DNA from: Deltaproteobacteria bacterium
GTDB lineage: Bacteria > Desulfobacterota > Syntrophia > Syntrophales > Smithellaceae
Direction of reading: 5' to 3'
NCBI GenBank assembly: GCA_022710585.1
Contig: JAKLGV010000005.1
Location: forward strand, 4,053 to 68,052
DNA length: 64,000 nt
Part shown: piece after piece, positions 21,801 to 43,641 of the stretch
Layout of the letters: the number at the start of each line of letters is the position of its first letter
Numbering within the stretch: position 1 is the first letter of the stretch
Position numbers and translations under genes: made by a program
The notes under the pieces: model-generated
The model's input: the letters and a program-made list of their open reading frames with translations, nothing else
Databases searched by the model: none
What the model was told of the DNA's origin: nothing

Positions 21801-22913
21801 ATGATTAAATCAAGACTTTGCGACATGACCGGAATCAAGTATCCCATCATTCAGGCGGGGATGGGTCCCTTCAGCAACAACAACCTCGGCGTAGCCGCGG
21901 CCAACGCCGGTGTGCTGGGCTTATTCTCCACCAGCGGACTCTGCAATAAGGATTTTCTGCCGTTTATTTACAATGACTGGATCAAGAGTGCCGAGGCGAA
22001 TCCGGATGATGACATTCCCACCGCAATTGAAAAACTGCTCAAAAGAAGCTATCGATTGACCAAAGACACAAACGGAGTGTTCGGAATCAATGTCATGGTA
22101 TCCGCCGAACTGCTTTTCCAGGCCGAGCTGATTATCAATACGGCCATTCAGGTGGTGAAAGCCAATCCGGGCATGGAAAAAAACTTCAAGGTTATCTTCA
22201 CTTCCGCGGGTGATCCGGTGCCCTGGAAAGAGAGAATTAAAGGCGCGGGTTTTACCTGGATGCATGTCGTGCCGTCCGTCAAGGGTGCGCTGCGCTGCAA
22301 GAAAGCAGGCGTCGATGTCATCGTCGCTTCGGGACACGAGGGAGGCTTTCATACATCCTGGGAACCGGTTCACTCGATGATTCTGCTTCCTGCTGTTGTG
22401 GAAGCGGTTTCCGATGCCAAGACCCTGGTTTGCGGAGCCGGTGGCTTCTGCGACGGTAAAACCCTGGCTGCGGCTCTCGTGCTTGGTGCTGACGGCGTCC
22501 AGATGGGCACCCGATTCCTCGCCACGCAGGAAAGTGATTTTCCCCAGATTTGGAGACAGGGCGTTGTCGATGCGGGTGACAGAGGAACTCTGGTTGCCAG
22601 AGGTTTTGTCGGGCCGGCACGCTGGATTAAAAATCCGCGCAGTGAAGAACACGCTAAAAATACACTGCAGAAATCACCCGGATGTTATCTGGGAACACCG
22701 GATGATATGCTGTCGATCGACTTCAAATTAATAGAGTTTGAGATGGAATCCATGCAGGCCGCCTATGACGGCAACAAGGAGAAGGCACTGCTGGCAGCCG
22801 GTGAAGCGGCTCAGCGCATCAGCGACATGCCCAAAGTCAGCGACATGGTGCAGGGGATGATGAAGGAGACGGAAGACATTCTAAAAAGCGTGCAGACAAA
22901 GATGCTCGGGTAG
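21801..22913 (+). CDS. Nitronate monooxygenase / FabK-like FMN enoyl reductase family protein
   Basis: IIQAGMGP, GHEGGFH and VQMGTRFL motifs. GAAGGAG RBS precedes the ATG at 21801. Confidence 0.8.
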   Translation: MIKSRLCDMTGIKYPIIQAGMGPFSNNNLGVAAANAGVLGLFSTSGLCNKDFLPFIYNDWIKSAEANPDDDIPTAIEKLLKRSYRLTKDTNGVFGINVMVSAELLFQAELIINTAIQVVKANPGMEKNFKVIFTSAGDPVPWKERIKGAGFTWMHVVPSVKGALRCKKAGVDVIVASGHEGGFHTSWEPVHSMILLPAVVEAVSDAKTLVCGAGGFCDGKTLAAALVLGADGVQMGTRFLATQESDFPQIWRQGVVDAGDRGTLVARGFVGPARWIKNPRSEEHAKNTLQKSPGCYLGTPDDMLSIDFKLIEFEMESMQAAYDGNKEKALLAAGEAAQRISDMPKVSDMVQGMMKETEDILKSVQTKMLG

Positions 22914-23020
22914 CACCAATTCTAAATCAAAGGGAACCCCGGCGAAGGCCGGGCGCGCCTTGCATCTAAGCATCCCGTATCAAGTACGGGACAAGCTTTT
23001 GACAGATCCTAAATAGATAT

Positions 23021-23080
23021 GTAGGGGCTGTTCCCCGAACAGCCCGCAATATTCGGCGCGTTCAGGGGAACGCGCCCTAC
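23021..23080. repeat. REP-like double-hairpin element, copy B
   Basis: GTAGG...CCTAC frame with hairpins gggctgttc-ccc-gaacagccc and ggcgcgttc-aggg-gaacgcgcc. Same orientation and layout as 1217-1272. Confidence 0.6.
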
Positions 23081-23118
23081 TTTGTTTTAGAAATGGTATA
23101 AGGTTGAATAAATTAAAA

Positions 23119-23150
23119 CAAAAAGCCGGAGACCAACTCCGGCTTTTTTT
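23119..23150. terminator. Bidirectional intrinsic terminator
   Basis: agccggag-accaa-ctccggct stem-loop with a preceding A-run and a following T7 run, between convergent genes. Confidence 0.75.
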
Positions 23151-23206
23151 AATGAAAACGAAGAAATAAGCCGAAGTGGCGCGATCGGCTCGAAAACCTT
23201 AGCCTT

Positions 23207-23635
23207 TTATAATTCTTTAGCAAGCTTTTTTAAGGCATCATTACGATTTGTTATGAATTCTATGTCTGGTGCATTTTCAATTGAGATAGGCGACTTATAG
23301 GCTTTCTCCCAAGCCTTAAAGGCATCATTTGTAAAGAAACATTCAATTAAAGATCCTACGGTAATGCACAATTCAAATGTTTGTGGTCGAGCTTCAACAC
23401 TCCGCATTTTCCCTTTATATGATGCCTTGTCTAATTGCAAAGCGGCATCTAGTGCATCTGTTTCTAACATACTTAATGCACGTACAGCATCACGAAAGAT
23501 TGAGTTTTTAAATTCAATATTTCGCTGTCGCTTCCAAATGAACGTATGCTTAAGCCAAGATACGATAAACGGCGAAATTATTCCTGAAACAATCCCTGCT
23601 GGAATTGCAACTGAAACAACAAGCGTGAAATCCAT
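23207..23635 (-). CDS. Hypothetical small membrane-anchored protein (one N-terminal TM)
   Basis: 142-aa ORF with an N-terminal hydrophobic helix (VVSVAIPAGIVSGIISPFIVSWL). Very AT-rich. No family recognised. Confidence 0.5.
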   Translation of the reverse strand: MDFTLVVSVAIPAGIVSGIISPFIVSWLKHTFIWKRQRNIEFKNSIFRDAVRALSMLETDALDAALQLDKASYKGKMRSVEARPQTFELCITVGSLIECFFTNDAFKAWEKAYKSPISIENAPDIEFITNRNDALKKLAKEL

Positions 23636-23724
23636 TGCATATTCTCCCTTCTAACGAAAAGCTGAATCCGAGAAACTCAGCAGACTGCGATTCTCTCTGG
23701 TGCATCATAAACTATCAATATTAC

Positions 23725-24585
23725 TTAATAACGTTTACCAGTGGACAAATCTGTAAAGATTTGTGCGATTATATCAAAATCTCTGGTTGCATCAAAAATA
23801 ATCTTATTGCTAAATAAACCTAGACCGCCTTCGGAAAGTGCTACCTGATATGGATTTCTAGTAAGAGGTGTCGGACCAAAAACCTCCCATAAGTTAAGAA
23901 ACTTTGCTTTACTGTTTCCCAAAAGAATTCCATTTTTATCTCTAGCCGTTCTCAAATTAACTTTCTTCCCATCTTTGGTAACTGTTCCGTCTTCATATAT
24001 AAAAATATGATCATAATTCGTTAAGGCATCTACTTCTTTTGCTAATTCTTCTATTGAGCTACCTATATTTTTCATTCTCGCCTTAATCAACTGCAGTGAT
24101 CCAATTTCTTTAGCAATTGCATAATCTATGAATCCATTATTTCTTAATTGTGAAACGTAATATGCATATCGACTTTGAATTGTAAGTACTCGCAATACTT
24201 CATATGCTCTAGTAATCGCTTCTGCTTTTCTGACATAACGCCCGAAATCAGACACAGAGAAACCACCACCATCCTTAGTATGCGCACTCAAACTAATTGC
24301 GCTCGATCGCTGGAGACCTACTGTATCTGAAATTATTGAATAAAAATAAGTAAGACCAATAACATCATTGTATGAATATCTCTTGGATGAATTCATGAAA
24401 TATTCTTTGTTTAATAATATGTTATCTATATTAATTGGCAGGGCATTCTCAGCCGCACTAGCAAGACGACTATATCTAGAATCACTTTCCACGTTTGATC
24501 TGTTTTCAGTTAGCCATTCACCACAATGCTTACATTTCAGTGCGTCAGATTGAATATCTTCGGCACAAAACGGACACTTTTTCAT
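23725..24585 (-). CDS. Hypothetical protein with an N-terminal CPxC...CxxC zinc ribbon
   Basis: MKKCPFCAEDIQSDALKCKHCGEWL. TAGGAGG RBS lies 5 nt upstream of the ATG at 24585, so the track start at 24621 is an over-extension. The remainder is unrecognised. Confidence 0.55.
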   Translation of the reverse strand: MKKCPFCAEDIQSDALKCKHCGEWLTENRSNVESDSRYSRLASAAENALPINIDNILLNKEYFMNSSKRYSYNDVIGLTYFYSIISDTVGLQRSSAISLSAHTKDGGGFSVSDFGRYVRKAEAITRAYEVLRVLTIQSRYAYYVSQLRNNGFIDYAIAKEIGSLQLIKARMKNIGSSIEELAKEVDALTNYDHIFIYEDGTVTKDGKKVNLRTARDKNGILLGNSKAKFLNLWEVFGPTPLTRNPYQVALSEGGLGLFSNKIIFDATRDFDIIAQIFTDLSTGKRY

Positions 24586-24737
24586 ACGACCTCCTAACAT
24601 TTTATCCTGACGATGAAACAATTAGTGCCAAAATTGTTTATCTGTATTTTGTATAACAACTTCTATTAAAAATATTGAGAATTAATGTTTGTTTCCTAGC
24701 ATAAAAATAATAATTTGGAAAACAAGAAACAGGCCCA

Positions 24738-25499
24738 CTATTCAGGGGACGAAGTTCTGAAGTAACGAACGCCAAGGAACATAATAATGCAAGCAAATAT
24801 CATACGCAGGGTGTTATTGGAAATGAGATGGGCGAGGTTTCCGCCAAGATATGTGCCTACAATGATTCCGGGGATCAGCCCCCAGAGGATTGTTTTTTCA
24901 ACATTGCCCATCTTCCAGTGAGTGAAGGCGCCGATGGCGCCTGCGGGAACCATCACCAGAAGCGATGTTCCCTGAGCCAAATGCTGGGTGAAGCCGGTCA
25001 GGATCACCATGACAGGAATCATAATTGTGCCGCCGCCGATTCCCATCATGCCGGAGAGAAATCCGGTGAAGGTTCCTGTTATCAAAAGGATAATTATTTT
25101 TGCATAACCTGGGACAGTGCCGATAAAATTGGTCAGGTACGGTTTTAACAATAAAAGAACCGAGCAAAAAATAAGAAAAGCACCGAAATATTTTTTCAGT
25201 TTTGCTTCCGTCAGAACATTACAGTAGCGTGCACCAATCGGCGAGGTAATGACTGCTGTCAAAGCCAGAAGCGTGGCTGCCGTAAAATCAATCGCACCAT
25301 TTAAAGCGTAGGTTACTGCTCCTCCGATCCCCGTAAAAACCAGTGCCAGCAGGCTGGTGCCGTGAGCCTTGAGTTGGCTTAGTTTCAAAACTTCGACCAT
25401 CAGTGGAATCATAATCAATCCACCGCCAATGCCCAGGATGCCGCCGAATGCTCCGGTGATCAGTCCGATGATCAAGCTAGTGATGATTGTTGTTGCCAT
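24738..25499 (-). CDS. TauE/SafE family sulfite/anion exporter
   Basis: Two-fold repeated 4-TM architecture with the GGG.I.IP motif twice. Confidence 0.85.
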   Translation of the reverse strand: MATTIITSLIIGLITGAFGGILGIGGGLIMIPLMVEVLKLSQLKAHGTSLLALVFTGIGGAVTYALNGAIDFTAATLLALTAVITSPIGARYCNVLTEAKLKKYFGAFLIFCSVLLLLKPYLTNFIGTVPGYAKIIILLITGTFTGFLSGMMGIGGGTIMIPVMVILTGFTQHLAQGTSLLVMVPAGAIGAFTHWKMGNVEKTILWGLIPGIIVGTYLGGNLAHLISNNTLRMIFACIIMFLGVRYFRTSSPE

Positions 25500-33018: not shown

Positions 33019-33368
33019 GAAAATGCAAGGATTAAAACCGCAAAAAATGGGCAAAAATGGATTAAAACCTGTTATTTAAGCACTTTAGAGTAGATAATTT
33101 TTCCATCATTATCGGCATAAAAATTCTTTAAAAAAGCTTCCTTCTGAAAACCGCATGACTCATAGAATTTATGGGTGGGTTCGTATTGTTCCCGGGAGGA
33201 TGTTTCCGCATAGACCTGTTTGCCGCCACTTTGCAAAATAATCTTTTCTGTTTCGGCCATCAGCCGTTTGCCCAGACCTTGTCCCTGAAGGTCGTTAGAA
33301 ACAACAATCCAGTAGATGTCATAGCTGGAAACCGTGGCGGGAACAAGGCCGTAGCACGTGTATCCGAT
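33019..33368. repeat. Left copy of the 350-bp direct repeat
   Basis: Aligns to 39721-40070 at a constant offset of 6702 nt with about 8 mismatches. Confidence 0.9.
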
Positions 33369-33374
33369 AACCAC
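33072..33374 (-). pseudogene. 3' fragment (last 99 codons) of a GNAT acetyltransferase gene, duplicate of 39774-40259
   Basis: 99 of 100 residues align to the C-terminal 99 residues of the intact copy. The N-terminal 62 codons are missing. The apparent start is a fortuitous GTG at the repeat boundary. Confidence 0.85.
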
Positions 33375-33788
33375 CTGACTTTGACAGTTTCACAACCGGG
33401 ATGTGTAAGTAGGTGTAAAGGGGTGGGTTGATTTTGGGGTCGTTTTGTAGTGCCCTGCGTTTTTTTACATCCCCATAATCATTGTGTTTTTTGTCGGAAA
33501 CTGTCGAAGTCAGGAACAATTATACCTTGACACGCAACTTCTTTTTTATTAATAAAAACGCCAGCATTCACCAATAACAACATTTTTATTGAGTCATTTA
33601 ATAATAAAATGTTGTTAAGTTTTACAGATGTCCCCCATAAAATTTGTTTTTTGATGTTTAAAGGCAGTACAAGCTTTTATTACATGGTGCAGTGTAATGA
33701 GAAAATGACTGAGTAGTATTTACGCCGTTGAAACGGCTGGTTTCAAAGTAGTCTCACTGTATTTTAAAAAACTTTTGGAGGTATTTAT

Positions 33789-36383
33789 ATGCCTGGACGT
33801 TTCCTGATGTTCTTTTCGAGAAAACTTCTTCCTGTATTTTTATTCATCTTCATTATTCTTGGCGTGTTGATTTTTAATTCCATTGTGTATTCCGCCGATA
33901 AGCAAACCGTTATTTCCATCGAAGACAGTCCGGCCATGGTGTCTGTAAATCATGTAACCAACAGAGCGGTCATAACCCATGGGCATTCCAATACCGACTT
34001 AATTTCCATCGTTGATCTCAATACGGAAAAAGTCATCAGTGAAATACCGGTGGCGAAATTACCGTCAGGCGTGGCCATTGATACGACTGAAAATGTCGCC
34101 GTTATTACTCATGAGAATGAACGCCTGCTGACGTTTATTGATTTGAATGCAAACCATATTATTGCTGCTCTGGATATCGATACAAAACCCAAAAACATTG
34201 CCGTCAATTCTAAAACTCATATTGCGGCAGTTACCAGCGCTATCGACACAGACGTGTTCTTTATCGATATAAGCACGCGAACAGTTGTGGCCCAAACAGA
34301 TGTCGGAATAAAATCCGGCGACGTGGCAGTTGATCCTGAACGCAACATAGCTTTCGTTCTCAATAAAAACAAAAGCTACATCAATATAATTGATATGAGC
34401 AATTATACCCTTAGCGATTCCATAGCGTTGGATAAAAAACCACAGGCCATTGATATCAATCCGGAAACCAATACCGCCGTAACAACCAATTATCATGATG
34501 GCAGCATTACGATTGTAGATTTGTCAACAAAAAGACTTGTTACAAAAGCACTGGGTGCATTTCCACTGGATGTGGTGATTAATACCATTGACGACCGCGC
34601 GGCTATATTATGTGACAAAAATAAAACACTTCTCCTTTTGGATCTCAAAACAAATGAAATTATCAGAACCTATTCATTACCGCGCCATCCTAGAAGTGTA
34701 GCTGTAAACAGCATTCGCAATACAGCCATAATTGCTGACGACGAAACAGACAGCTTAACGATTATTTCCTTACCCCTTTCTCCAACTCTCCCGAAGGTTC
34801 AAATATTTTCACCGGTTGATAATGCTCAAATTTATTCCAAGGCAGTCCCTGTTTCCGGCACTGTGGAAAACAGCACAGACGTGATGGTTAATGATCTTAG
34901 CGCTTCCGTTAATGGCGGCACGTTTCTCGCAGATTTAATTCTAGGCTCAGGACAAAACACTATTGCCGCAATCGCGACTGATAAATACGGGCGCACCGCC
35001 TGTCATGATATTTTAGTTGATATACTTGTCGGGAAAATAACCGGAACCGTGACTAATGCCTTCACCGGCTGGTTGCTGCCTTCTTCCATTGTATCAATAA
35101 CGGATTCCAAGGGATATAACCAGACCATCAATACAAATGCCGATGGCTCATTTAATGCCGAACTTGCTGCCGGTCCTTTTTCCGGCGCGGTTGAAAAACC
35201 CTGGTATTTACCATATGCATTTAACGGGTCAGTCATCGTGGGAGGAACATCGACATTAGATATCTCCCTCACACCCGTACCACCATTAATAGGAAATATT
35301 CGTGTAACCGATATTACCGAAAGTTCCGCAAAAATAAATTGGACAACGGATCAAATCACCGGCGGCAGTGTGGAATACGGTAAAACAACTGCTTATGGAG
35401 GAATTGCTCCCGATTCTATTGAAAACACTTTTCACAGTATTGCTCTAAGCAATTTATCGCCGGCAACAACATATCATTTTCGTGTAAATGCTATTTCAGC
35501 AAATGGTTCTTCTGCTGTATCCAATGATGTTACTTTTAAAACGAAGGGAAATATTGAAATTACCATCAACGCACCGGCAGACGGCATCACGATAAATAAC
35601 AATAGCGTAATCGTGACAGGTTCAATAACTAACCCCGCTAATGTGGAAACCGGTATCACAGTAAATGGCATGCCTGTATCACTTAACAACAATCAATTTG
35701 CCGTCAACAATGTGCCACTTAATGCGGGACAAACTACCATAACCGTTACGGCAACAGATGTAAACGGAACTACCGTGTCCAAATCCATTTCCGTAAATGC
35801 AACCATTCCGGAAAAATTCATCGCGCTTAGCGCTTACCCGGAATCGGGAGTAGCGCCACTGGAAGTATCTTTAAAGATCAATGGCTCTTTCAGTATTATT
35901 AATCCTATTATTACAACTGCTGGACCTGGTGCAGTCGAACAACTCGCCTGTGACAATCCTGATGAATTCAAATACAAGCTGACATCGGAAGGGATTTATT
36001 ATTTTACCGCACAAGTAACCTGCCCGGACGGAAACCTTTATCAGGATACAAAGGCCGTCACTGTACTTCCCCTGGCACAAATTGATGCATTGCTGAGGGC
36101 AAAATGGGAAGCATTTTCCAGTGCCCTTGCCAATAAGGATATCTCGACAGCACTAACTATGATGCATCCTGTAAGCTCAGTACGTTATCAAACAATGTTT
36201 AATCTCTTGAAAGATCAATTGCCGGCTATTGTAGCTACTCATGCCAACCTAACCTTAGTATCCATAATTAATGAGGAAAGGGCGTGGTATGATTTGAGAG
36301 CATCAGAAAGCGAAGGACAATTTACCTATAGAGTTGTTTTTGTAAAAGACACAAATGGCTTATGGCGTATTCTGGAATTCTAA
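33789..36383 (+). CDS. Exported multidomain protein: YVTN-type beta-propeller, Ig-like, CarboxypepD_reg-like, FN3, Ig-like/PKD-like, and a C-terminal NTF2/SnoaL-like domain
   Basis: GGAGG RBS and a signal anchor. Repeated ..N.A.V(T/L)..........I(V/I)D(L/M)(S/N)T... blades. INWTTDQ...VEYGKTTAYG...TYHFRV FN3-like segment. C-terminal LRAKWEAF...WRILEF. Confidence 0.7.
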   Translation: MPGRFLMFFSRKLLPVFLFIFIILGVLIFNSIVYSADKQTVISIEDSPAMVSVNHVTNRAVITHGHSNTDLISIVDLNTEKVISEIPVAKLPSGVAIDTTENVAVITHENERLLTFIDLNANHIIAALDIDTKPKNIAVNSKTHIAAVTSAIDTDVFFIDISTRTVVAQTDVGIKSGDVAVDPERNIAFVLNKNKSYINIIDMSNYTLSDSIALDKKPQAIDINPETNTAVTTNYHDGSITIVDLSTKRLVTKALGAFPLDVVINTIDDRAAILCDKNKTLLLLDLKTNEIIRTYSLPRHPRSVAVNSIRNTAIIADDETDSLTIISLPLSPTLPKVQIFSPVDNAQIYSKAVPVSGTVENSTDVMVNDLSASVNGGTFLADLILGSGQNTIAAIATDKYGRTACHDILVDILVGKITGTVTNAFTGWLLPSSIVSITDSKGYNQTINTNADGSFNAELAAGPFSGAVEKPWYLPYAFNGSVIVGGTSTLDISLTPVPPLIGNIRVTDITESSAKINWTTDQITGGSVEYGKTTAYGGIAPDSIENTFHSIALSNLSPATTYHFRVNAISANGSSAVSNDVTFKTKGNIEITINAPADGITINNNSVIVTGSITNPANVETGITVNGMPVSLNNNQFAVNNVPLNAGQTTITVTATDVNGTTVSKSISVNATIPEKFIALSAYPESGVAPLEVSLKINGSFSIINPIITTAGPGAVEQLACDNPDEFKYKLTSEGIYYFTAQVTCPDGNLYQDTKAVTVLPLAQIDALLRAKWEAFSSALANKDISTALTMMHPVSSVRYQTMFNLLKDQLPAIVATHANLTLVSIINEERAWYDLRASESEGQFTYRVVFVKDTNGLWRILEF

Positions 36384-36403
36384 TGAAGGAGAGATGAAAA
36401 AAT

Positions 36404-37027
36404 ATGAAAAAAATTATTACGTTATTAATACTTATCATTCTTACAATTTCTTTACCTGCCGCATATGCCGGATCGATTTTTTATAACAAGCCTGAATTCA
36501 AAGGCAGGATTATTGACGCGGAAACAAAAGAGCCGATCGAAGGGGCTGTGGCTGTGGTTTTGTATGACAAGTGGGCGATGATAGGTGGTCCGGGCGGACC
36601 AAGTTCTTATACCTTTCATGCCAAGGAAACGCTGACGAATAATGAAGGAGAATTTTCACTTCCATCGTATTCTTCATTAACCTTATCCAGTATGGATGCC
36701 GGTGTTAGATTCATATTTTACAAACCAGGATTTATGGCAGGCTATGGTCCAGCAAATATAAGTCCGCTTTTGGAAGAGGCATATTTTTCCACCGGCAATG
36801 TTGGTGAGGAAATGGAGATAGCAGCAAAAACCTTCGACAAACGCAGTTATATTAAATGGAAAGGACCTGTGGGAATTGTGGAATTGAAGAAAGCAAGGAC
36901 TAGGGAAGAAAGATTACGATCAATGCCATCGCCACCAACTGATTTCACATCAAATGAACTTCCAATATTTATAAAAATTATAAATGATGAAGGCCATAAT
37001 CTTGGATTGAAGGGGGAATATAAATGA
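36404..37027 (+). CDS. Exported protein with a carboxypeptidase-regulatory-like (transthyretin-fold) domain
   Basis: Signal peptide ...PAAYA|GS and a GRIIDAETKEPIEGAVAVV motif. Confidence 0.6.
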   Translation: MKKIITLLILIILTISLPAAYAGSIFYNKPEFKGRIIDAETKEPIEGAVAVVLYDKWAMIGGPGGPSSYTFHAKETLTNNEGEFSLPSYSSLTLSSMDAGVRFIFYKPGFMAGYGPANISPLLEEAYFSTGNVGEEMEIAAKTFDKRSYIKWKGPVGIVELKKARTREERLRSMPSPPTDFTSNELPIFIKIINDEGHNLGLKGEYK

Positions 37028-39420
37028 TGGTTAAAGTTAAGAGCATTTTAAACTCATTGTTTATTGTTATAATTGCATTTAGTTTTTCTTCTCGGGTAAT
37101 GGCCTTGGCACCTGATACTCATAGTGCAATCAATAAGTACATTACTCAGAGAGAATATTTAGACGATTATTTAAAGAATCAATTAGGAATACCAGATGGC
37201 AAAGATACTTTTTTCAATAATAAAAAAGTATTTGACTTAGTAGCCAATGGCGGCGCAGAAGAAGATGCTGGCATACGCTCGATGAATCATTTTCTAAATC
37301 CGATCACTAATAAAGGTTTGAGCCTTAATTATTCAGCTTTGGAATGGGCTACAATGCCCTTATTTAATCAAAAGCTTTCACCTTTTGCTTCATGGAACGA
37401 TGTCCGTTATTACTATTTTAAAGCTCTAACCTCGGTAGATAAAACAACCAGAGATGACAATTTCGCTATGACATTTCAGGGCATCGGAAAGGTCATGCAT
37501 TTGGTGGAGGACATGTCGGTGCCGGCACACACGCGCAGTGACAAGCACCCCTCACTCTGGATTATCGGTGGCGACGATTATGAAAGATGGTCAAAAACAT
37601 TCATTAAAGATATAGCTCAAATTGTTAATGATAATCCAACGACATTTTTTGAATATAATGATACAGCCTTTTTAGTTTCAAAACTCTTTGATACAAATCA
37701 ATATATCGGAACAAATCCAGACATCACAATATCATCTAAAAGTATCGGTCTTTCGGAATATACAAACGCAAATTTCTTAAGTTTTGACACAATTTTTACG
37801 GACGATTTTTCATATCCTTCTTATAACCCCGGAATAACTGTAGAGCGATACGTTGAGAATGAAATACTATACTTAAGTAAGATTGGCGTTGGTGAAGACA
37901 TTAAATATTTTGCCCGTGCTAACAATTTTTATAATTATCTTCCGTCTGATTACAAGAAATTAGCATTACATTTGGATGATGATAAGATTTATAATAATTA
38001 TGCCCAATTTCTCATTCCCCGCGCCATTGGTTATTCCTCTCAGGTCTTAAAATACTTTTTCCGTGGGCAATTGGACGTGGTGCTGGTTGATGGAAATATC
38101 AAAGTCAAAAATGCTTCAGATGAAACTATTAGTAATGGTGAATTCAAGCTTTATTATGATAATGCCGCTGGCATGCGAACGCTATTAACAACCGCTAGTG
38201 CAAATACCCTTGCGCCCAATGGTGATCCACAAACCATTAACTTTACCCTGCCTGAAGGTGTAACAGCAAAATCATACATGCTTGTATATCAAGGTCAATT
38301 GGGTGAGGAACCTAACGCTGTGATCGGAAAATTTATTCCTGTCGATAACAATCTTCCAATAATCTATATAGAGGTAGGATCTCAGTGTATTGTGTGGGAT
38401 GTTGAAAATGGAAAATTTTACGATAAAGTTACTACAGATTCCAGCACACCTGAAAACCCCCAATATGCCGTGTTTCCTTGTGATCCGACAACTATATCAA
38501 TGTGGAAAGAACAACAGACTAAAACAACCATGCATAATGCGTCAATGTGGAAGTGTGGAAGGATGGAGCCACCGGCTAATGGTGCGGAGGAGCAACTGTG
38601 CCCATTTGCTCTTGATGCAGTAGGCGCAATGGATACTTATTCAAAAATATATGAGTCTTCTGATGTGTATCCTCAGTATAGTTATGGCTCAGAGGATATT
38701 CTTATCTATTCAAAAAACTCTAAATACGATGATGGCTTTTTACGGTCTAACAATTCTGATGTGTTAGAATTAAACTCTTCCGTCTGGTACAGGGTAAAGT
38801 GGGAAAGGCATATTTCTGGAGACTCCTTCGTGACGAGTGATTATTGGTGGGGGGCCGGGTGTAAACAGAGCTCCGACGTCCAAGAAAAGTACAGTATTTA
38901 TTCTGTGGGTGAACCTTTTGGAATACCCTTTTTTGAAATATACAATCATCAAATCTGGGAACGTGAATATTATGGTAAAGGTCAGGATGATTATCCTTAT
39001 TGTAGAGGAAGTTGGAATGCAACGAGGTTAGCTCCACATCGTAACTCAGTTATTTATAAATTAATATGGTCAGACAAACTGGTGTTGCACGTTGCGTATG
39101 TAACGGCGGTTATGAACAAAGAAGAAAATAATTATGATGTTATTTATGATGATGAATATGGTGGATTTTACAGCGGACCTGGTACTAGCGTGTTGCAACC
39201 AAGGATTCAGGGATTAAAGGTAAATTTAGACTATAAAAAGGACCGTCTAATAAAAGACGGTAAATACGACTTGGGACATATACCAGTAGCTCCAGCTAAT
39301 TTAAAAACTGCCATACAAGATTTAATAGATAAAAGGTATATGGATCTGGGGTTACCTGTGACTGATATTCCATACAATATGTTTATGGATGTTATTTTTT
39401 ACGAAGTGAAAAGTATATAA
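37024..39420 (+). CDS. Exported protein with a zinc phospholipase C / P1-nuclease-like N-terminal domain and a large unknown C-terminal region
   Basis: Signal peptide ...RVMA|LA. Motifs HSAINKY, EEDAGIRSMNHFLNP and VMHLVEDMSVPAHTRSD. The start overlaps the upstream stop (ATGA). Confidence 0.6.
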   Translation: MMVKVKSILNSLFIVIIAFSFSSRVMALAPDTHSAINKYITQREYLDDYLKNQLGIPDGKDTFFNNKKVFDLVANGGAEEDAGIRSMNHFLNPITNKGLSLNYSALEWATMPLFNQKLSPFASWNDVRYYYFKALTSVDKTTRDDNFAMTFQGIGKVMHLVEDMSVPAHTRSDKHPSLWIIGGDDYERWSKTFIKDIAQIVNDNPTTFFEYNDTAFLVSKLFDTNQYIGTNPDITISSKSIGLSEYTNANFLSFDTIFTDDFSYPSYNPGITVERYVENEILYLSKIGVGEDIKYFARANNFYNYLPSDYKKLALHLDDDKIYNNYAQFLIPRAIGYSSQVLKYFFRGQLDVVLVDGNIKVKNASDETISNGEFKLYYDNAAGMRTLLTTASANTLAPNGDPQTINFTLPEGVTAKSYMLVYQGQLGEEPNAVIGKFIPVDNNLPIIYIEVGSQCIVWDVENGKFYDKVTTDSSTPENPQYAVFPCDPTTISMWKEQQTKTTMHNASMWKCGRMEPPANGAEEQLCPFALDAVGAMDTYSKIYESSDVYPQYSYGSEDILIYSKNSKYDDGFLRSNNSDVLELNSSVWYRVKWERHISGDSFVTSDYWWGAGCKQSSDVQEKYSIYSVGEPFGIPFFEIYNHQIWEREYYGKGQDDYPYCRGSWNATRLAPHRNSVIYKLIWSDKLVLHVAYVTAVMNKEENNYDVIYDDEYGGFYSGPGTSVLQPRIQGLKVNLDYKKDRLIKDGKYDLGHIPVAPANLKTAIQDLIDKRYMDLGLPVTDIPYNMFMDVIFYEVKSI

Positions 39421-39448
39421 AGACTATAAAAGAAAAAAACATCGGGAA

Positions 39449-39712
39449 GTGGAGGAGATGACCCGACTGTCGCAATCCATTATTACAGAAATGGAGGAGA
39501 CCAGACAGCCCTCCCTGCCGTTTCTGGATCCGCTCAAAGTTTTAAAAACCCGGCGCCGGGAAGAAGAGGTCAGCGATACCGTTCAGATGCGGAATTTGCG
39601 GGAAGAGCAGTTGCATGCTCAATCGAGCGTGATGATTGATCTGGCGTCTCAAAAAAAATATGTGATTCCATCCCATGTCACCGTCAACCAGAAAAAACTC
39701 TACCAGCTCTGA
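39449..39712 (+). CDS. Doubtful small ORF (87 aa, charged, GTG start), possibly a gene remnant
   Basis: ORF only. Host-like GC, no RBS, no recognisable family. Confidence 0.2.
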   Translation: MEEMTRLSQSIITEMEETRQPSLPFLDPLKVLKTRRREEEVSDTVQMRNLREEQLHAQSSVMIDLASQKKYVIPSHVTVNQKKLYQL

Positions 39713-39720
39713 CTATCTAA

Positions 39721-40070
39721 GAAAATGCAAGGATTAAAACCGCAAAAAATGGGCAAAAATAGATTAAAACCTGTTATTTAAGCACTTTAGAGTAGATAAT
39801 TTTTCCATCATTATCGGCATAAAAATTCTTTAAAAAAGCTTCCTTCTGAAAACCGCATGACTCATAGAATTTATGGGTGGGTTCGTATTGTTCCCGGGAG
39901 GATGTTTCCGCATAGACCTGTTTGCCGCCACTTTGCAAAATAATCTTTTCTGTTTCGGCCATCAGCCGTTTACCCAAACCATGTCCCTGAAGGTCATTGG
40001 CAACAACAATCCAGTAGATGTCATAGCTTGAAACCGTGGCGGGAACAAGGCCGTAGCACGTGTATCCGAT
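39721..40070. repeat. Right copy of the 350-bp direct repeat
   Basis: See 33019-33368. Confidence 0.9.
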
Positions 40071-40259
40071 GACCTGATTTTCCATTTCCGCAAACAGAAA
40101 CCGGTAGGAGCTCGCATCCTGCTGTTCCAGTTTTTCTTCGGCCAGTTGGATGGCAATTTCTATTTCCTCTTCGGAAAAGAAGCCGCTGAATTCAACCAGG
40201 CGGGCAATGGCTTCAACATCCGCAGGGGCTAATTGTCGGCGAAAGGCAATGGTTTTCAT
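39774..40259 (-). CDS. GNAT family N-acetyltransferase (last gene of the aminomutase operon)
   Basis: VANDLQGHGLGKRLM motif A, 161 aa. Confidence 0.85.
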   Translation of the reverse strand: MKTIAFRRQLAPADVEAIARLVEFSGFFSEEEIEIAIQLAEEKLEQQDASSYRFLFAEMENQVIGYTCYGLVPATVSSYDIYWIVVANDLQGHGLGKRLMAETEKIILQSGGKQVYAETSSREQYEPTHKFYESCGFQKEAFLKNFYADNDGKIIYSKVLK

Positions 40260-40282
40260 AAATATTTCAGTCTAAAGATATA

Positions 40283-41266
40283 TTATTTTAATGCGTTATC
40301 AACAATCAACCCGATAGCTTCAGAATACTTAATATCCGCCCGGGCAAGGGCCGCGGCAAAACCGGCATCCGGCGACAGGCAGGGATTTGTGTTGACCTCC
40401 AATACCCAGGGATTGCCGTTGCCGTCAACCCGGAAATCCACGCGGGCATATCCGCGCAAAGAAAAAACATCCCAGCACTGCAGAGCCATGTCGCTCAGCG
40501 CTGATATTAATGGAGCATCCTCGTCTGGAAAATCGAATTTCCGGATTGTGTTGTTGTACTCAAAGGAATCCGCGTGCCATTTGGCCCTGTAATCAACGAT
40601 TTTCAGTTTATCCGGACCATAATCCTGAAACAGCATTTCGGCGATGGGCAACACTCTGGCGCCGGTCTTGTCTGATAGGAGGGCAACGTTGAATTCGCGG
40701 CCTTCGATGTAAGCTTCGGCATAGCAGGAGCCGCCCAGTTTTTCCTCGCGAAGCCTCATTTCTTTTATGAGGCGCTCTTTTCCCGCGTAAGGAATGAGCG
40801 AGTTTTCATCAAGACCGATGGAAGCATGTTCCCAGGAGGACTTGATTAAATATGATCCGCCCTCATCGCGTTGCGAGGCGAAGCCGTTCTGCTCCAACCA
40901 GTCCGGAGTGGCGATGCCGGCGAAGCGCATCATTTTTTTGGCCAGCGGCTTATTGGATGTCTGGAACACGGCTTCCGTGCCGCACCCGGTATAGGAAATT
41001 TTCAGTGCGTCAAGAACCGCCGGAGCAAAATGAATCAGACTGCCTCTGGCGTTCAGCGTTTCCACGATGTTGAAAACGACCGCCGGCTTTAGCAATTGCA
41101 GCATGGCGATGTTTTGATTCAGATTGAGTTCAAACGGCAAAAGGGCAGGTTCATAATTCAGTGCGCGCAGGGCTTCGGCGATGGCTTGAGCCTGAACCAG
41201 GCAATCCAGTTCATCATCCGGAGCATCCGGCGTAATCTCGCTGTGTAAAATGACAATTTTTTTCAT
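40283..41266 (-). CDS. ATP-grasp ligase, D-Ala-D-Ala-ligase-like
   Basis: Pre-ATP-grasp N domain, central KSSWEHASIG and YIEGREFNV, C-terminal RVDFRVD...PWVLEVNTNPCLS Mg/ATP motif. Confidence 0.8.
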   Translation of the reverse strand: MKKIVILHSEITPDAPDDELDCLVQAQAIAEALRALNYEPALLPFELNLNQNIAMLQLLKPAVVFNIVETLNARGSLIHFAPAVLDALKISYTGCGTEAVFQTSNKPLAKKMMRFAGIATPDWLEQNGFASQRDEGGSYLIKSSWEHASIGLDENSLIPYAGKERLIKEMRLREEKLGGSCYAEAYIEGREFNVALLSDKTGARVLPIAEMLFQDYGPDKLKIVDYRAKWHADSFEYNNTIRKFDFPDEDAPLISALSDMALQCWDVFSLRGYARVDFRVDGNGNPWVLEVNTNPCLSPDAGFAAALARADIKYSEAIGLIVDNALK

Positions 41267-41293
41267 CTGAATCTTTTCCGGTCTCGCCGGTGC

Positions 41294-42292
41294 TTATTTT
41301 TTTACGCGCTTCAGGGCGGATTTCAGAATGGCGCTGATCAGTTTATGATAGCTCATGCCTATTTTATTGCATAAGATGGGCAAATCCGAGCGTACGGGAT
41401 TGAGTCCGGCCAGAGAATTGACTTCCATAAAATGGGGGATGCCGTGAACATTAGATCGCAAATCAATGCGGCCGGCATCTTTTAAATCCAGTCCGCGCCA
41501 GGCCATCAGGGAAATTTCCATGGCTTTTTGCGCCTCCTCATCGTTGACCAGAACATACTCCACCAATTTGTCGTAGTGCTCTTTGTTTTCGTAGGAGTAG
41601 GCGTTCTTTTCCGCGTCGGGTTTGAGAATGACTTCCATGGCCCCCAGCGCCCGCGCGTCTTTACCCGTTCCCAGAATACCCACTGTAAATTCTCGTCCGG
41701 GAAGATACGTTTCCACCAGCACCGGCTGACGAAAATCCTTGAGAAGCTGTTTGCAGACCTTTTCCAGATTTTTCCGCGATGTTATTTTGGAAAGCGCCGT
41801 AATGCCTTTGCCCGTTCCCTCGGCCACGGGCTTGGCAAAAAGGGGAAAGGGAAGATGAACCATGTCTATATCTTTGACGTCGCTCACCACGGTAAAGTCA
41901 GGCGTGGGGATTCCCAGATCGCGCAGAATCTGTTTGGTGAAGCCTTTGTGCAGCGTCACAGCGTTGCCCAGAGGATCGGAAAACGTATAGGGAATGTTGA
42001 ACGCTTCCAGCAGGGCCGGCACCTGCGCCTCGCGGCCGAAACCGTACAGGCCTTCCGCGATGTTAAAAACCAGATCCCAGCGGTCTCCTTTCGCGAGCCG
42101 ACGGGTCAGAGCCTTGATGTTGCCGATACGATCGGTTTGAAAGCCGCCATCCAGAATGACCCTTTCAATGGCTTCAATGGTGTCGGGGAGATCGAATTCA
42201 GCGGTTTCTTCGAGACCGTATCCTTCTTTCAGGTAATCTTCGCGCAGATCATAGGTGAGGCCGATTTTGAGTTTGTTGCGGACACGACTCAC
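41294..42292 (-). CDS. ATP-grasp ligase, D-Ala-D-Ala-ligase family (second paralogue)
   Basis: PLFAKPVAEGTGKGI, YLPGREFTVGILG and RIDLRSN...PHFMEVNSLAGL motifs. Confidence 0.8.
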   Translation of the reverse strand: MSRVRNKLKIGLTYDLREDYLKEGYGLEETAEFDLPDTIEAIERVILDGGFQTDRIGNIKALTRRLAKGDRWDLVFNIAEGLYGFGREAQVPALLEAFNIPYTFSDPLGNAVTLHKGFTKQILRDLGIPTPDFTVVSDVKDIDMVHLPFPLFAKPVAEGTGKGITALSKITSRKNLEKVCKQLLKDFRQPVLVETYLPGREFTVGILGTGKDARALGAMEVILKPDAEKNAYSYENKEHYDKLVEYVLVNDEEAQKAMEISLMAWRGLDLKDAGRIDLRSNVHGIPHFMEVNSLAGLNPVRSDLPILCNKIGMSYHKLISAILKSALKRVKK

Positions 42293-42330
42293 GATGGATT
42301 TACCTACCCCCTGCCATAAGATTGCGGTGA

Positions 42331-43641
42331 TTAATGAATGTCTTTCAACATGGCGTGATTATCGGGGTAGCGGTACGTGTTGCCTTCGTAATTGCGCAGC
42401 AGCAGGTCGCCGTTTTCCCAGCCGATGGCGTATTCGGGAAGCAATGGAATTTTGCCGCCGCCGCCCGGGGCATCTACAACATAGGTAGGTACAGCGTAAC
42501 CCGTGGTGTGGCCGCGCAGTCCCTGAATAATTTCCAATCCCTTGTTGATCGGCGTCCGGAAATGGGAGGAGCCGGGAATGGGATCACATTGATAGAGATA
42601 ATAAGGACGCACCCGGATTTGCAGTTGCCCGTGGACCAGTCTGGTCATCGTGGCCACATCATCATTGACGTTGGCCAGTAGAACGGTCTGGCTGCCCAGC
42701 GGAATACCGGCATCGGCCAGACGAATGCAGGCGGCGCTCATTTCCGGCGTCAGTTCTTTGGGATGGGTAATATGAATGCTCATCCAGAGCGGATGGTATT
42801 TTCTCAGCATGGTGGTCAGCGCCGGCGTGATGCGCTGCGGCAGTACAACCGGGACCTTGGTACCGATGCGCACCATTTCGACATGGCGGATTTTGTGCAG
42901 ACGCGCCAGCAGCCATTCCAGCTTCTCGTCGGAAAGCGTGAGCGGGTCGCCGCCGGAGAGCAGCACGTCGCGGACATTTTTATTACCGGCGATATAATCG
43001 ATGGCTGTATTCCATTTTTCGTAATTCAAGGACCGGTGGGCGCTCCGTTCGATGATTCGGGAGCGGGTGCAGTAACGGCAGTACGTCGAGCAGGTATCGG
43101 TCACCAGAAACAGCACGCGGTCGGGATAGCGGTGGATAATACCCGGCACGGGAGAATCCACATCTTCGCAGAGCGGATCTTCCTCTTCACCCGCGGTGTG
43201 CAGACATTCATCCACCACCGGCACCACGCAGCGTCGCAGCGGATCGGCGGGATCGTCGGCGTCCAGCAGACTGGCGTAATAAGGTGTAATGGAAACGGGC
43301 AGCGCGCCGGAATGATGCATCATGGCCTGACGCTCGTTGTCCGAAAGATTGATGATCTGCGAGAGTGTGTCCACATCCCGGATGGCGTTGTGCAACTGCC
43401 AGCGCCAGTCGAACCACTCCAGGCGGGTAATATCGGGATATTGGTTTGTTCGAAAGATACGGGATCGGGCGGAATCTTTAAAAGGAAATAAGGCACTGCT
43501 TGACTTTTGTTTGACCGCGTAAGGCTGCGCGATCTCGGAGCTGAATAACAAAAAGTCACTTACATTATTTTTAGCATGAACAAGACCGGTCAACTGACCA
43601 GGAGGTTCCTCCTCCTCATTAAACAGGGTCTCGCTTTCCAT
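42331..43641 (-). CDS. kamA: KamA-family radical SAM/PLP aminomutase with lysine-2,3-aminomutase-type substrate residues
   Basis: CSTYCRYC cluster motif, HRYPDRVLFLVTD, YQCD and VVDAPGGGGK. Near-colinear with Clostridium subterminale LAM. Confidence 0.85.
   Translation of the reverse strand: MESETLFNEEEEPPGQLTGLVHAKNNVSDFLLFSSEIAQPYAVKQKSSSALFPFKDSARSRIFRTNQYPDITRLEWFDWRWQLHNAIRDVDTLSQIINLSDNERQAMMHHSGALPVSITPYYASLLDADDPADPLRRCVVPVVDECLHTAGEEEDPLCEDVDSPVPGIIHRYPDRVLFLVTDTCSTYCRYCTRSRIIERSAHRSLNYEKWNTAIDYIAGNKNVRDVLLSGGDPLTLSDEKLEWLLARLHKIRHVEMVRIGTKVPVVLPQRITPALTTMLRKYHPLWMSIHITHPKELTPEMSAACIRLADAGIPLGSQTVLLANVNDDVATMTRLVHGQLQIRVRPYYLYQCDPIPGSSHFRTPINKGLEIIQGLRGHTTGYAVPTYVVDAPGGGGKIPLLPEYAIGWENGDLLLRNYEGNTYRYPDNHAMLKDIH

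What the first reader, a model, noticed from the sequence alone, without database searches (positions are those of the whole stretch)
33019..40070. 6.35-kb AT-rich insertion bracketed by a 350-bp direct duplication of a gene 3' end, with no recombinase
Seen: 33019-33368 and 39721-40070 are direct repeats at a constant 6702-nt offset. I count about 8 mismatches, 7 of them in the last ~110 bp on the gene-internal side. The right copy belongs to an intact 161-aa GNAT gene. The left copy is only its last 99 codons plus 53 bp of downstream sequence, and it looks like an ORF only because of a fortuitous GTG. Allowing a 3-nt indel, weak homology continues for about 11 nt past the boundary (33369-33382 vs 40071-40081). 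DNA between the repeats from 33.4 to 39.4 kb is visibly AT-rich. Hand counts of single 60-nt lines give 25-42% GC, against about 55% in the adjacent kamA-like gene. That stretch encodes three exported proteins. The segment 39449-39712 next to the right repeat returns to host-like composition. Inference: foreign DNA was captured either by a Campbell-type single crossover or by an element that targets a gene 3' end and brings a replacement end. No integrase, transposase, short target-site duplication or terminal inverted repeat is visible, so the mobilisation route is unexplained.
Basis: partly seen in the sequence, partly recalled or inferred. Interest (0 to 1): 0.75.

Follow-up and report, generated by a model that had tools for sequence, protein, structure and literature searches.

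The report
Decayed IS1634 transposon, 354-bp target duplication
The 6.35-kb insertion is real, but it most likely arrived on an IS1634-family transposon, a kind known to duplicate unusually long stretches of its target, and worn-down remains of that transposon sit at both edges, so it is a fairly ordinary mobile-element scar.

Summary
33019-33372 and 39721-40074 are 354-bp direct repeats with 9 mismatches, bracketing 6.35 kb that about 40 related Smithella/Smithellaceae species lack; in those, the GNAT gene is followed directly by DUF47-PiT.

The claim of "no transposase, no inverted repeats" is wrong.
- One nucleotide from the left repeat lies a 141-bp mini-IS (33374-33514) with 18-bp terminal inverted repeats, CCTGACTTYGACAGTTTC.
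- The "host-like" ORF at 39449-39712 is a twice-deleted remnant of an IS1634-family transposase (39441-39710).
- Intact relatives (1867-1873 bp, 557-aa transposase), some annotated from Smithella, carry the same repeats. At seven independent sites they are flanked by perfect direct repeats of 33-143 bp.
- Long, variable duplications (8-514 bp) are a published oddity of IS1634 and IS1549.

Best explanation (confidence about 0.7): an IS-cargo-IS composite transposon or cointegrate inserted across the GNAT 3' end and made a target duplication of at least 354 bp. Both IS copies then decayed. The missing right-hand IS end is the main weakness.

The mismatches cluster at the inner end because a homologous-recombination tract ends inside the right repeat. 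The cargo is a conserved surface/secreted-protein module that includes a phospholipase-C-like protein.

New member of a known kind; modest interest.

The parts
33019..33372 (-). Left copy of the 354-bp direct repeat: a pseudogene fragment holding the last 99 codons and stop of the GNAT gene plus 53 bp downstream. On its left it runs on into the native DUF47 upstream region.
   Evidence: The copy is identical in strains W, L008 and L009. In L007 and L010 it is a mosaic of left-type and right-type SNPs.
33374..33514 (+). Mini-IS (IS-A): a 141-bp derivative of an IS1634-family element that keeps only the ends. IRL is 33374-33391 and IRR is 33497-33514 (18 bp, 1 mismatch). It corresponds to IS positions 1-86 fused to about 1803-1871 at the subterminal TGTAGTGCCC motif (33446-33455).
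   Evidence: the motif has only 2 hits in the window, against 0.18 expected by chance. L073 has the same ends and the 13-bp subterminal direct repeat; intact IS copies carry identical inverted repeats; alignment to the left and right ends of intact IS copies.
33518..39430 (+). Cargo: the upstream (likely promoter) region plus three genes. p864 (33789-36383) has a YVTN beta-propeller and Ig/FN3 domains. p207 (36404-37027) is a small exported protein. p798 (37024-39420) has an N-terminal zinc-phospholipase-C-like domain.
   Evidence: The module is conserved elsewhere (L066, L068, L069). Homology to L066 starts at 33518, 3 nt after the IRR of the mini-IS. Fold evidence for p798.
39441..39710 (+). 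IS-B remnant: two in-frame fragments of an IS1634-family transposase gene, corresponding to IS positions about 257-427 and 1639-1738. Gene callers report it as an 84-87-aa ORF (39449-39712). It lacks the first 256 nt, including the IRL; the middle 1.2 kb; and the last roughly 133 nt, including the IRR.
   Evidence: residues 2-55 match residues 45-98, and residues 45-86 match the C-terminus, of IS1634-family transposases; tblastn. NF033559 scores of 152-355 bits for the relatives against a cut-off of 100; 75-85% nucleotide identity to intact IS copies.
39711..39720 (.). Orphan nucleotides between the end of transposase homology and the right repeat. They are probably filler at a secondary deletion junction. 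Depending on the reference IS, the unaligned stretch starts at 39707.
39721..40074 (-). Right copy of the direct repeat, forming the 3' end of the intact GNAT gene plus 53 bp downstream.
   Evidence: In strains L007-L009 a recombination tract with 7-10% divergence ends inside this copy.
39774..40259 (-). Intact 161-aa GNAT acetyltransferase gene, the last gene of the conserved kamA / ATP-grasp / ATP-grasp / GNAT cluster. It stays intact because the duplication spans its 3' end.

Best explanation
The 6.35-kb insert is the decayed remains of an IS1634-family transposition event. Two directly oriented IS copies bracketed a three-gene surface/secreted-protein module, either as a composite transposon or as the equivalent IS-donor-IS cointegrate. 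This unit inserted across the 3' end of the GNAT gene in a Smithella lineage.

Like IS1634 and IS1549, and like intact relatives of this IS clade, the transposition duplicated a long stretch of target DNA, at least 354 bp. Because the duplicated stretch spans the gene's end, one complete GNAT gene survives on the right and a 3' fragment remains on the left.

Shown:
- The empty site in relatives.
- The IS end 1 nt from the left repeat.
- The transposase remnant at the right edge.
- The family assignment.
- Long perfect duplications around intact relatives.

Inferred:
- The two remnants were once complete IS copies that moved as one unit.
- The left IS collapsed to a 141-bp mini-IS by deletion between its subterminal 13-bp repeats.
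- The right IS lost its 5' end, middle and 3' end. The 3' deletion removed the right inverted repeat and possibly part of the right duplication, so the original duplication may have been longer.
- The island then spread among strains by homologous recombination. One crossover fell inside the right repeat, which explains why 8 of the 9 mismatches sit at its inner end.
For: 1. Ancestral empty site. About 40 Smithellaceae species have GNAT followed directly by DUF47-PiT, with no cassette homologues within 10 kb either side.

2. Left junction. An 18-bp terminal inverted repeat, CCTGACTTYGACAGTTTC, starts at 33374, 1 nt after the left repeat ends. The 141-bp element aligns to both ends of intact 1867-1873-bp IS copies.

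3. Right edge. 39441-39710 aligns at 75-85% nucleotide identity to internal and C-terminal parts of the same IS and at 76-86% amino-acid identity to transposase fragments P0122 and P0124.

4. Family. The intact relatives' 557-aa ORFs score 344-355 bits on NCBIfam NF033559 (IS1634 family transposase, cut-off 100). NCBI names close homologues 'IS1634 family transposase [Smithella sp.]'.

5. Long duplications in this clade. Seven independent insertion sites of intact relatives carry perfect direct repeats of 33, 48, 51, 71, 74, 96 and 143 bp that abut the inverted repeats directly. Two are inside 124-kb and 227-kb contigs.

6. Literature. IS1634 and IS1549 produce long, variable-length direct repeats of 8-514 bp (PMC2266710). 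An IS1634-family composite transposon, Tn6097, has been shown to transpose (PMC3281130).

7. Cargo boundary. Homology between the cargo and an independent copy of the module (L066) begins 3 nt after the IRR of the mini-IS, as expected if the IS sat just upstream of the module in the donor.

8. Mismatch pattern. Between strains the cassette and left repeat differ by 0.0-0.2%, while the GNAT 5' part and the adjacent ATP-grasp gene differ by 7-10%. The switch falls inside the right repeat.
Against: - The right-hand IS end (IRR) is missing. The right repeat abuts a truncated transposase gene plus 10-14 orphan nucleotides, so only one of the two transposition junctions is intact and a secondary deletion has to be assumed.
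- One unexplained nucleotide (A, 33373) lies between the left repeat and the IRL.
- 354 bp is longer than any duplication I measured for intact relatives (33-143 bp), although it is within the published range.
- Most IS1634-family members make 5-6-bp duplications, and the proven composite Tn6097 made 6 bp.
- The window's own transposase remnant is too short to hit the family HMM directly. Its assignment rests on close relatives.
- No second or intact copy of the composite unit was found anywhere.
- Several short metagenome contigs with intact IS copies show no duplication. In some of these the left and right flanks match different long-contig insertion sites, which points to mis-joins across a multi-copy IS, but I did not prove it.
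Confidence: 0.7

Rival explanations
1. Two-step hybrid. The IS-flanked unit first inserted inside GNAT of another strain with an ordinary short duplication. Later a fragment [GNAT 3' end - IS - cassette - truncated IS] circularised by illegitimate joining (39720 to 33019). It then integrated into an intact GNAT gene by a single homologous (Campbell-type) crossover, which created the 354-bp duplication.
For: This model explains both junctions without a later deletion. The left junction is an IS end, and the right junction is an illegitimate joint inside the transposase gene. Homologous recombination is clearly active at this locus: recombination tract boundaries lie in the repeat and the left copies are mosaic.
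Against: It needs three rare steps: disruptive insertion, illegitimate circularisation, then uptake with a single crossover. The long-duplication model uses a property directly observed at seven sites for this IS clade. No circular joint and no GNAT-disrupted allele turned up in any assembly. A crossover between diverged alleles should spread mismatches over the whole repeat, not leave 1 mismatch in the distal 250 bp.
Confidence: 0.12
2. The 354-bp duplication arose independently of the IS, for example by replication slippage, unequal crossing-over or end-joining capture of foreign DNA. The mini-IS and the transposase fragment are unrelated later arrivals or passengers.
For: The right junction carries no IS end. 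IS fragments are common debris next to this cassette family; L067 has what I take, from memory only, to be a fragment of a different transposase downstream of the p798 homologue.
Against: The IS terminus lies 1 nt from the repeat boundary, and the cargo's homology to L066 starts 3 nt from the other IS terminus. Two such coincidences are very unlikely. Remnants of the same IS clade sit at both edges in the same orientation.
Confidence: 0.08
3. A site-specific integrative island that targets the GNAT 3' end and carries a replacement gene end as its attachment site, and whose integrase has since been lost.
For: The geometry fits: an intact gene on one side and a displaced 3' fragment on the other.
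Against: There is no integrase or recombinase domain, and no room for one. The insert is filled by three cargo genes plus IS remnants, and the precomputed Pfam annotation of 22-50 kb shows none. There is no tRNA or tmRNA in the window. 354 bp is far longer than the attachment-site cores I know of (from memory, not checked here). The identical distal 250 bp does not look like a diverged element-borne gene end.
Confidence: 0.03
4. Assembly artefact: the duplication or the insertion is a mis-join.
For: Many assemblies break at the repeat. Two short contigs, L004 and L005, join GNAT directly to DUF47.
Against: At least four independent assemblies from different studies and assemblers span both repeat copies, with identical junctions and consistent copy-specific SNPs.
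Confidence: 0.01

Closest known systems
IS1634 (Mycoplasma mycoides) and IS1549 (Mycobacterium smegmatis): IS1634-family insertion sequences that create long, variable-length direct repeats
   Same: The transposase family is the same: NF033559 scores of 344-355 bits for intact relatives. Element size is about 1.87 kb; IS1634 itself is 1872 bp. Target duplications are long and variable, 33-143 bp in relatives and 354 bp here, within the published 8-514 bp range (PMC2266710).
   Different: The host is a syntrophic deltaproteobacterium (Smithella). Here the duplication flanks a 6.35-kb IS-cargo-IS unit rather than a single IS. Both IS copies are reduced to remnants and the right terminus is lost.
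Tn6097 of Paracoccus ferrooxidans: a composite transposon bordered by two copies of ISPfe2 (IS1634 family)
   Same: Two IS1634-family copies mobilise a block of passenger genes, and transposition was demonstrated experimentally (PMC3281130).
   Different: Tn6097's IS copies are convergent and intact, its core is 14 kb, and its duplication is 6 bp. Here the copies are in direct orientation and decayed, and the duplication is 354 bp.
Insertion-duplication (Campbell-type) integration of a circle carrying a chromosomal fragment
   Same: The final geometry is the same: the homologous segment is duplicated on both sides of the insert, with one intact gene and one truncated copy.
   Different: In a Campbell event the repeat boundaries are set by the cloned fragment, not by a transposon terminus. 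Here the inner boundary coincides with an IS end to within 1 nt, and the IS clade is seen making such duplications itself.
MITEs and other internally deleted IS derivatives
   Same: The 141-bp element at 33374-33514 keeps both terminal inverted repeats and has lost the transposase gene. The apparent cause is recombination between the 13-bp subterminal repeats seen in L073.
   Different: No other copy of this mini-element was found in the 64-kb window. Whether it is mobilised in trans is unknown.

Membership tests
IS1634 family insertion sequence | DDE transposase of the IS1634 type (NCBIfam NF033559; large, about 550 aa) | tested here: met
   Met through close relatives. The window's remnant (39441-39710) is 76-86% identical in amino acids to P0122 and P0124, and 75-85% identical in nucleotides to IS copies whose 557-aa ORFs score 344-355 bits against a cut-off of 100. 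The 89-aa remnant alone gives no HMM hit.
IS1634 family insertion sequence | Element of 1.5-2.0 kb bounded by terminal inverted repeats, with the weakly conserved terminus C-----YT | tested here: met
   Intact relatives are 1866-1875 bp with 18-bp inverted repeats CCTGACTTCGACAGTTTC (C at position 1, T at 7, T at 8). The same repeat pair bounds the window's mini-IS.
IS1634 family insertion sequence | Target-site duplication directly abutting both ends. The family norm is 5-6 bp; the IS1634/IS1549 subset makes long, variable ones of 8-514 bp. | tested here: inconclusive
   The left end is met: the repeat ends 1 nt before the IRL. The right end is not testable because the IRR is deleted. Relatives meet the long-duplication pattern at seven sites, 33-143 bp, all perfect.
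Composite transposon or IS-mediated cointegrate | Two copies of the same IS flanking the passenger DNA | tested here: met
   Remnants of the same IS clade lie at both edges in the same orientation. They cover non-overlapping parts of the IS: 1-86 plus 1803-1871, versus 257-427 plus 1639-1738. Both are degenerate, so identity of the two copies cannot be checked.
Composite transposon or IS-mediated cointegrate | The unit is found at more than one location, or is shown to move as a unit | tested here: not met
   All 22 contigs read that carry the exact p798 protein (10 of them shown with context) are consistent with this one locus. The nearest other cassette (L066, 70% amino-acid identity) has no IS end upstream. 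Mobility itself cannot be tested with these tools.
Site-specific integrative island (integrase plus att repeats at a gene 3' end) | Tyrosine or serine recombinase encoded in or next to the island | tested here: not met
   No recombinase domain in the insert or in 22-50 kb of the window. No tRNA or tmRNA target in the window.
Campbell-type insertion-duplication by homologous recombination | A circular donor carrying the duplicated chromosomal fragment, with the 39720|33019 joint | not testable with these tools
   I did not search the collections directly for the 39720|33019 joint. None of the roughly 50 contigs read for this locus shows it, but free circles would need read-level data or PCR.

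The most novel reading that the evidence does not exclude
This Smithella IS1634 clade may routinely make long, variable target duplications: 33-143 bp at seven sites, and 354 bp or more here around a 6-kb composite. Three consequences would follow. An insertion that straddles a gene end does not disrupt the gene. The island acquires built-in homology arms that could explain its near-identical spread across strains with diverged flanks, and possibly its precise loss (contigs L004 and L005). And the many natural insertion sites, which show a preference for duplications that start with A and end with T, could help explain how long duplications form; the 2008 review cited above states that no mechanistic model had been proposed.
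Probability: 0.3. Interest if true: 0.5.

Novelty: new member of a known kind. Interest (0 to 1): 0.3.

Why it matters
It resolves an apparent puzzle, foreign DNA with a 350-bp gene-end duplication and no recombinase, into a known though uncommon mechanism. It also shows how easily decayed IS remnants are missed: an 18-bp inverted-repeat pair, and an 87-aa ORF that is really two fused transposase fragments.

It adds a deltaproteobacterial clade to the few IS1634-family elements documented to make long, variable target duplications, with eight natural examples spanning 33-354 bp.

It illustrates how a long duplication can let a transposon land on a gene's end without inactivating the gene. For Smithella biology, it marks a strain-variable module of surface and secreted proteins, including a phospholipase-C-like protein, acquired by an important syntroph of anaerobic digesters.

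Tried and rejected
- **tRNA/tmRNA or structured-RNA target.** No tRNA in the window and nothing meaningful in Rfam.
- **Integrase, recombinase or defence annotation.** Pfam and NCBIfam scans of all insert ORFs and their neighbours found none.
- **Empty-site allele in JGI metagenomes.** An exact-flank pattern spanning the repeat gave 0 hits. The pattern was validated on L004 and L005.
- **L004 and L005.** These two short contigs join GNAT directly to DUF47 and carry right-type SNPs internally and the left-type base at repeat position 314. At least L004 comes from a data set whose sister sample's assembly breaks at the repeat. I could not tell a real excision or never-inserted allele from a mis-join.
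- **Origin of the orphan ends.** blastn and tblastx of 33373-33517 and 39421-39720 against related Smithella loci found nothing. The answer came only from an HMMER search of the 87-aa ORF.
- **Polarity of the repeat mismatches.** Comparison with outgroup GNAT genes was uninformative, because both alleles occur among relatives.
- **Dating the insertion from repeat divergence.** Rejected, because the mismatches reflect a recombination tract boundary.
- **Composition as proof of foreign origin.** Only moderate, because ordinary genes in the window reach similar GC3.
- **Original papers.** The IS1634 and IS1549 papers (PMC93511, PMC106989) are not held. Their content is cited only through PMC2266710.

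Full report
**1. Observation**

A repeat search and a pairwise alignment confirm a direct repeat at 33019-33372 and 39721-40074. It is 354 bp long at an offset of 6702 nt and has 9 mismatches. Eight of the mismatches lie in the 104 bp on the gene-internal side.

The right copy is the 3' end of an intact 161-aa GNAT gene (39774-40259, minus strand) plus 53 bp downstream. The left copy holds only the last 99 codons plus those 53 bp.

Between the repeats lie three large plus-strand ORFs of 864, 207 and 798 aa, each with an N-terminal signal-like segment, and a small ORF at 39449-39712.

The cassette is 39.1% GC with GC3 of 0.33-0.38. The window overall is 46.6% GC, and most other genes I checked have GC3 of 0.47-0.65. 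Some ordinary genes elsewhere in the window are nearly as AT-rich, so composition is only supporting evidence.

**2. Not an artefact, and a true insertion**

Exact-protein look-ups place the locus in anaerobic-digester and wastewater metagenomes.
- At least four independent assemblies span both repeat copies with identical junctions and consistent copy-specific SNPs.
- Many other assemblies break at the repeat and leave the cassette as a stand-alone 6.0-6.8 kb contig.

A scan of one genome per species identifies the organism as Smithella (Smithellaceae). About 40 related species have the order kamA - ATP-grasp - ATP-grasp - GNAT - DUF47 - PiT - DAP decarboxylase, most with only about 90-140 bp between GNAT and DUF47. 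None has a homologue of the cassette proteins within 10 kb either side.

**3.

*The small ORF is a transposase remnant.* An exhaustive HMMER search with the 87-aa ORF shows that it is two fused fragments of a DDE transposase.
- Residues 2-55 match residues 45-98 of full-length proteins of about 550 aa.
- Residues 45-86 match their C-terminal region, at 76-86% identity to P0122 and P0124.
- These relatives, and the 557-aa ORFs of intact elements, match NCBIfam NF033559 (IS1634 family transposase) at 152-355 bits against a cut-off of 100.
- NCBI annotates close homologues as IS1634 family transposases of Smithella.

*The left edge holds the ends of the same IS.* A contig carrying a similar remnant (L073) showed the ends of the element. 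The same 18-bp terminal inverted repeat, CCTGACTTYGACAGTTTC, occurs in the window at 33374-33391 and, inverted, at 33497-33514. These are the only two hits in 64 kb.

Intact elements recovered from metagenomes are 1866-1875 bp long and carry these same inverted repeats. Against them:
- Window 33374-33455 aligns to IS positions 1-86.
- Window 33446-33514 aligns to positions about 1803-1871.
- The two parts are fused at the subterminal TGTAGTGCCC motif, which is a 13-bp direct repeat in L073.
- Window 39441-39610 aligns to IS positions 257-427, and 39610-39710 aligns to positions 1639-1738.

The insert therefore carries a 141-bp 'ends-only' mini-IS at its left edge and an end-less, twice-deleted transposase remnant at its right edge. 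Both are in the same orientation.

**4. The junctions**

- *Left junction.* The left repeat ends at 33372 and the IS inverted repeat begins at 33374.
- *Cargo boundary.* Homology between the cargo and an independent copy of the same gene module (L066, 64-70% amino-acid identity for the two large proteins) begins at 33518, 3 nt after the other end of the mini-IS.
- *Right junction.* Transposase homology stops at about 39706-39710, some 14 codons before the expected stop codon. It is followed by 10-14 orphan nucleotides and then the right repeat at 39721. The right IS terminus is missing.

**5. Does this IS clade make long duplications?**

Yes. At seven independent insertion sites of intact relatives, the DNA directly abutting both inverted repeats is a perfect direct repeat. 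The lengths are:

| Locus | Duplication (bp) | Note |
|---|---|---|
| L125/126/128 | 33 | |
| L127 | 48 | |
| L077 | 51 | |
| L112 | 71 | |
| L122/123 | 74 | inside a peroxiredoxin gene |
| L102 | 96 | 227-kb contig |
| L103 | 143 | 124-kb contig; also L079/L106 |

All seven duplications end in T and six of seven begin with A. In the window, the native base just past the right repeat (40075) is T.

The literature records the same behaviour for the family's name-giving members. [quoted passage not shown] An IS1634-family composite transposon, Tn6097, has been shown to transpose, though with a 6-bp duplication (PMC3281130).

**6. Best explanation (confidence about 0.7)**

An IS-cargo-IS unit, either a composite transposon or the topologically equivalent replicative cointegrate, inserted across the 3' end of GNAT and generated a target duplication of at least 354 bp. 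Because the duplicated segment includes the gene's end and 53 bp beyond it, an intact GNAT gene remains.

Later events, all inferred:
- The left IS collapsed to a mini-IS by deletion between its subterminal repeats.
- The right IS lost its 5' end, its middle and its 3' end.
- The 3' deletion removed the right inverted repeat and may have trimmed the right duplication, so the original duplication may have been longer.

**7. Why the mismatches cluster**

Between the window and strains L007-L009, the whole stretch 31.5-39.5 kb (left repeat, IS remnants and cassette) differs by 0.0-0.2%. The stretch 40.0-41.5 kb (the 5' part of GNAT and the adjacent ATP-grasp gene) differs by 7-10%. The switch falls inside the right repeat.

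The left copies in L007 and L010 are mosaics of left-type and right-type SNPs. Homologous recombination and gene conversion therefore shape the repeats, and the 9 mismatches do not date the insertion. The pattern suggests that a nearly identical island has moved between diverged GNAT backgrounds, with one crossover inside the repeat.

**8. Empty-site contigs**

Two short contigs, L004 and L005, join GNAT directly to DUF47. They carry right-type SNPs internally and the left-type base at repeat position 314. That is what recombination between the repeats, a never-inserted strain, or an assembler mis-join would each produce.

At least L004 comes from a data set whose sister sample's assembly breaks at the repeat. 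An exact-flank scan of JGI metagenomes found no further example. This question stays open.

**9. Rivals**

- *Two-step hybrid (0.12).* Short-duplication insertion in another strain, then circularisation of a [GNAT' - Tn] fragment and Campbell-type integration. It explains the odd right junction without a later deletion. It needs more rare steps and ignores the clade's demonstrated long duplications.
- *Duplication unrelated to the IS (0.08).* This requires two boundary coincidences.
- *Integrase-based island (0.03).* It lacks any recombinase, any room for one, and any tRNA target.
- *Assembly artefact (0.01).* Excluded by multiple spanning assemblies.

**10. Cargo (in passing)**

- p864 combines a YVTN beta-propeller, similar to an archaeal surface-layer protein, with Ig-like and FN3 domains.
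- The N-terminal roughly 440 residues of p798 are modelled with high confidence. The model matches Clostridium alpha-toxin and Bacillus cereus phospholipase C, and a set of His/Asp/Glu/Trp residues is invariant across 27 homologues.
- The three-gene module recurs in other bacteria. In one case it sits directly upstream of a complete type II secretion operon.

**11. Verdict**

The inference that this is an insertion is right. The proposed mechanisms, and the 'no transposase' premise, are not. This is a new member of a known kind: an IS1634-family element with a long target duplication, here in composite and decayed form. Interest is modest (0.3), mainly for IS specialists and as a natural data set on an unexplained transposition oddity.

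Noticed in passing
window 37024-39420 (p798); homologues P0002-P0120: The 798-aa exported protein has no Pfam, NCBIfam or PDB sequence match. Its N-terminal roughly 440 residues are modelled with high confidence, and the model matches Clostridium perfringens alpha-toxin and Bacillus cereus phospholipase C (Foldseek probability 0.98-1.0). H33, E80, D81, H89, W124, D126, H159, D163, H169, H175 and E187 are invariant in 27 homologues. It is probably an undescribed family of secreted zinc-phospholipase-C-like proteins, with 299 hits at E <= 0.001.
   Followed up: partly
L068:363-15039; L069:6564-11872; L066: The module (Ig-like surface protein, one to three small proteins of about 200-220 aa, and an 800-aa PLC-like protein) is a conserved gene cluster in other bacteria. 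In L068 it lies directly upstream of a complete type II secretion (gsp) operon. In L069 the small-protein region is expanded to three tandem genes of about 207-214 aa, and the middle one is similar to the N-terminus of p798.
   Followed up: partly
window 22901-24738: A 1.8-kb stretch of low GC (0.38) holds two ORFs with no convincing Pfam domain (about 286-298 aa and 142 aa). It is absent from strain L007, where the TauE gene is followed directly by the NMO gene. This is a second strain-variable indel in the window.
   Followed up: no
window 40072-40080 versus 33374-33382: The native GNAT sequence just past the right repeat (CCTGATTTT) matches the IS terminus (CCTGACTTT) at 8 of 9 positions. 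It could be chance or a preference for targets that resemble the IS end. It is not seen at the L077 insertion site.
   Followed up: partly
window 39500-41500 versus L007, L008 and L009: The GNAT / ATP-grasp-2 segment is 7-10% diverged between strains whose flanks are 0.0-0.2% diverged. In L007 and L009 the block extends through ATP-grasp-1 and into kamA. A further 5% block lies in the DAP decarboxylase gene at 30.5-31 kb. This is a mosaic of homologous-recombination imports. In addition, species L035 has DUF47 and PiT 98-99% identical to the window while GNAT is only 74% identical.
   Followed up: partly
L067:2597-2701: Downstream of the 70%-identical p798 homologue lies a short ORF, MAEIELSVLKGQCLSGRIPDMPTMQAQVAAWEKERN. 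From memory it looks like the C-terminal part of an IS630-type transposase; I did not test this. Copies of this cassette seem often to sit next to IS debris.
   Followed up: no
window 40283-43641: kamA-like radical-SAM aminomutase (closest NCBIfam model: lysine 2,3-aminomutase AblA, 496 bits against a cut-off of 525) plus two D-Ala-D-Ala-ligase-like ATP-grasp enzymes plus a GNAT form a cluster conserved across Smithellaceae. The cluster is also found in some Bacteroidales, Krumholzibacteriia and Nitrospinota MAGs. It may be a pathway for a beta-amino-acid peptide or an acetylated compatible solute, and I know of no characterisation of it.
   Followed up: no
L080/L105 and L083: Some short metagenome contigs show IS - 143 bp - IS or IS - 124 bp - IS. 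The 143-bp case is the long duplication of L103 collapsed by the assembler. Long IS duplications can therefore look like tandem IS arrays in short-read assemblies.
   Followed up: yes
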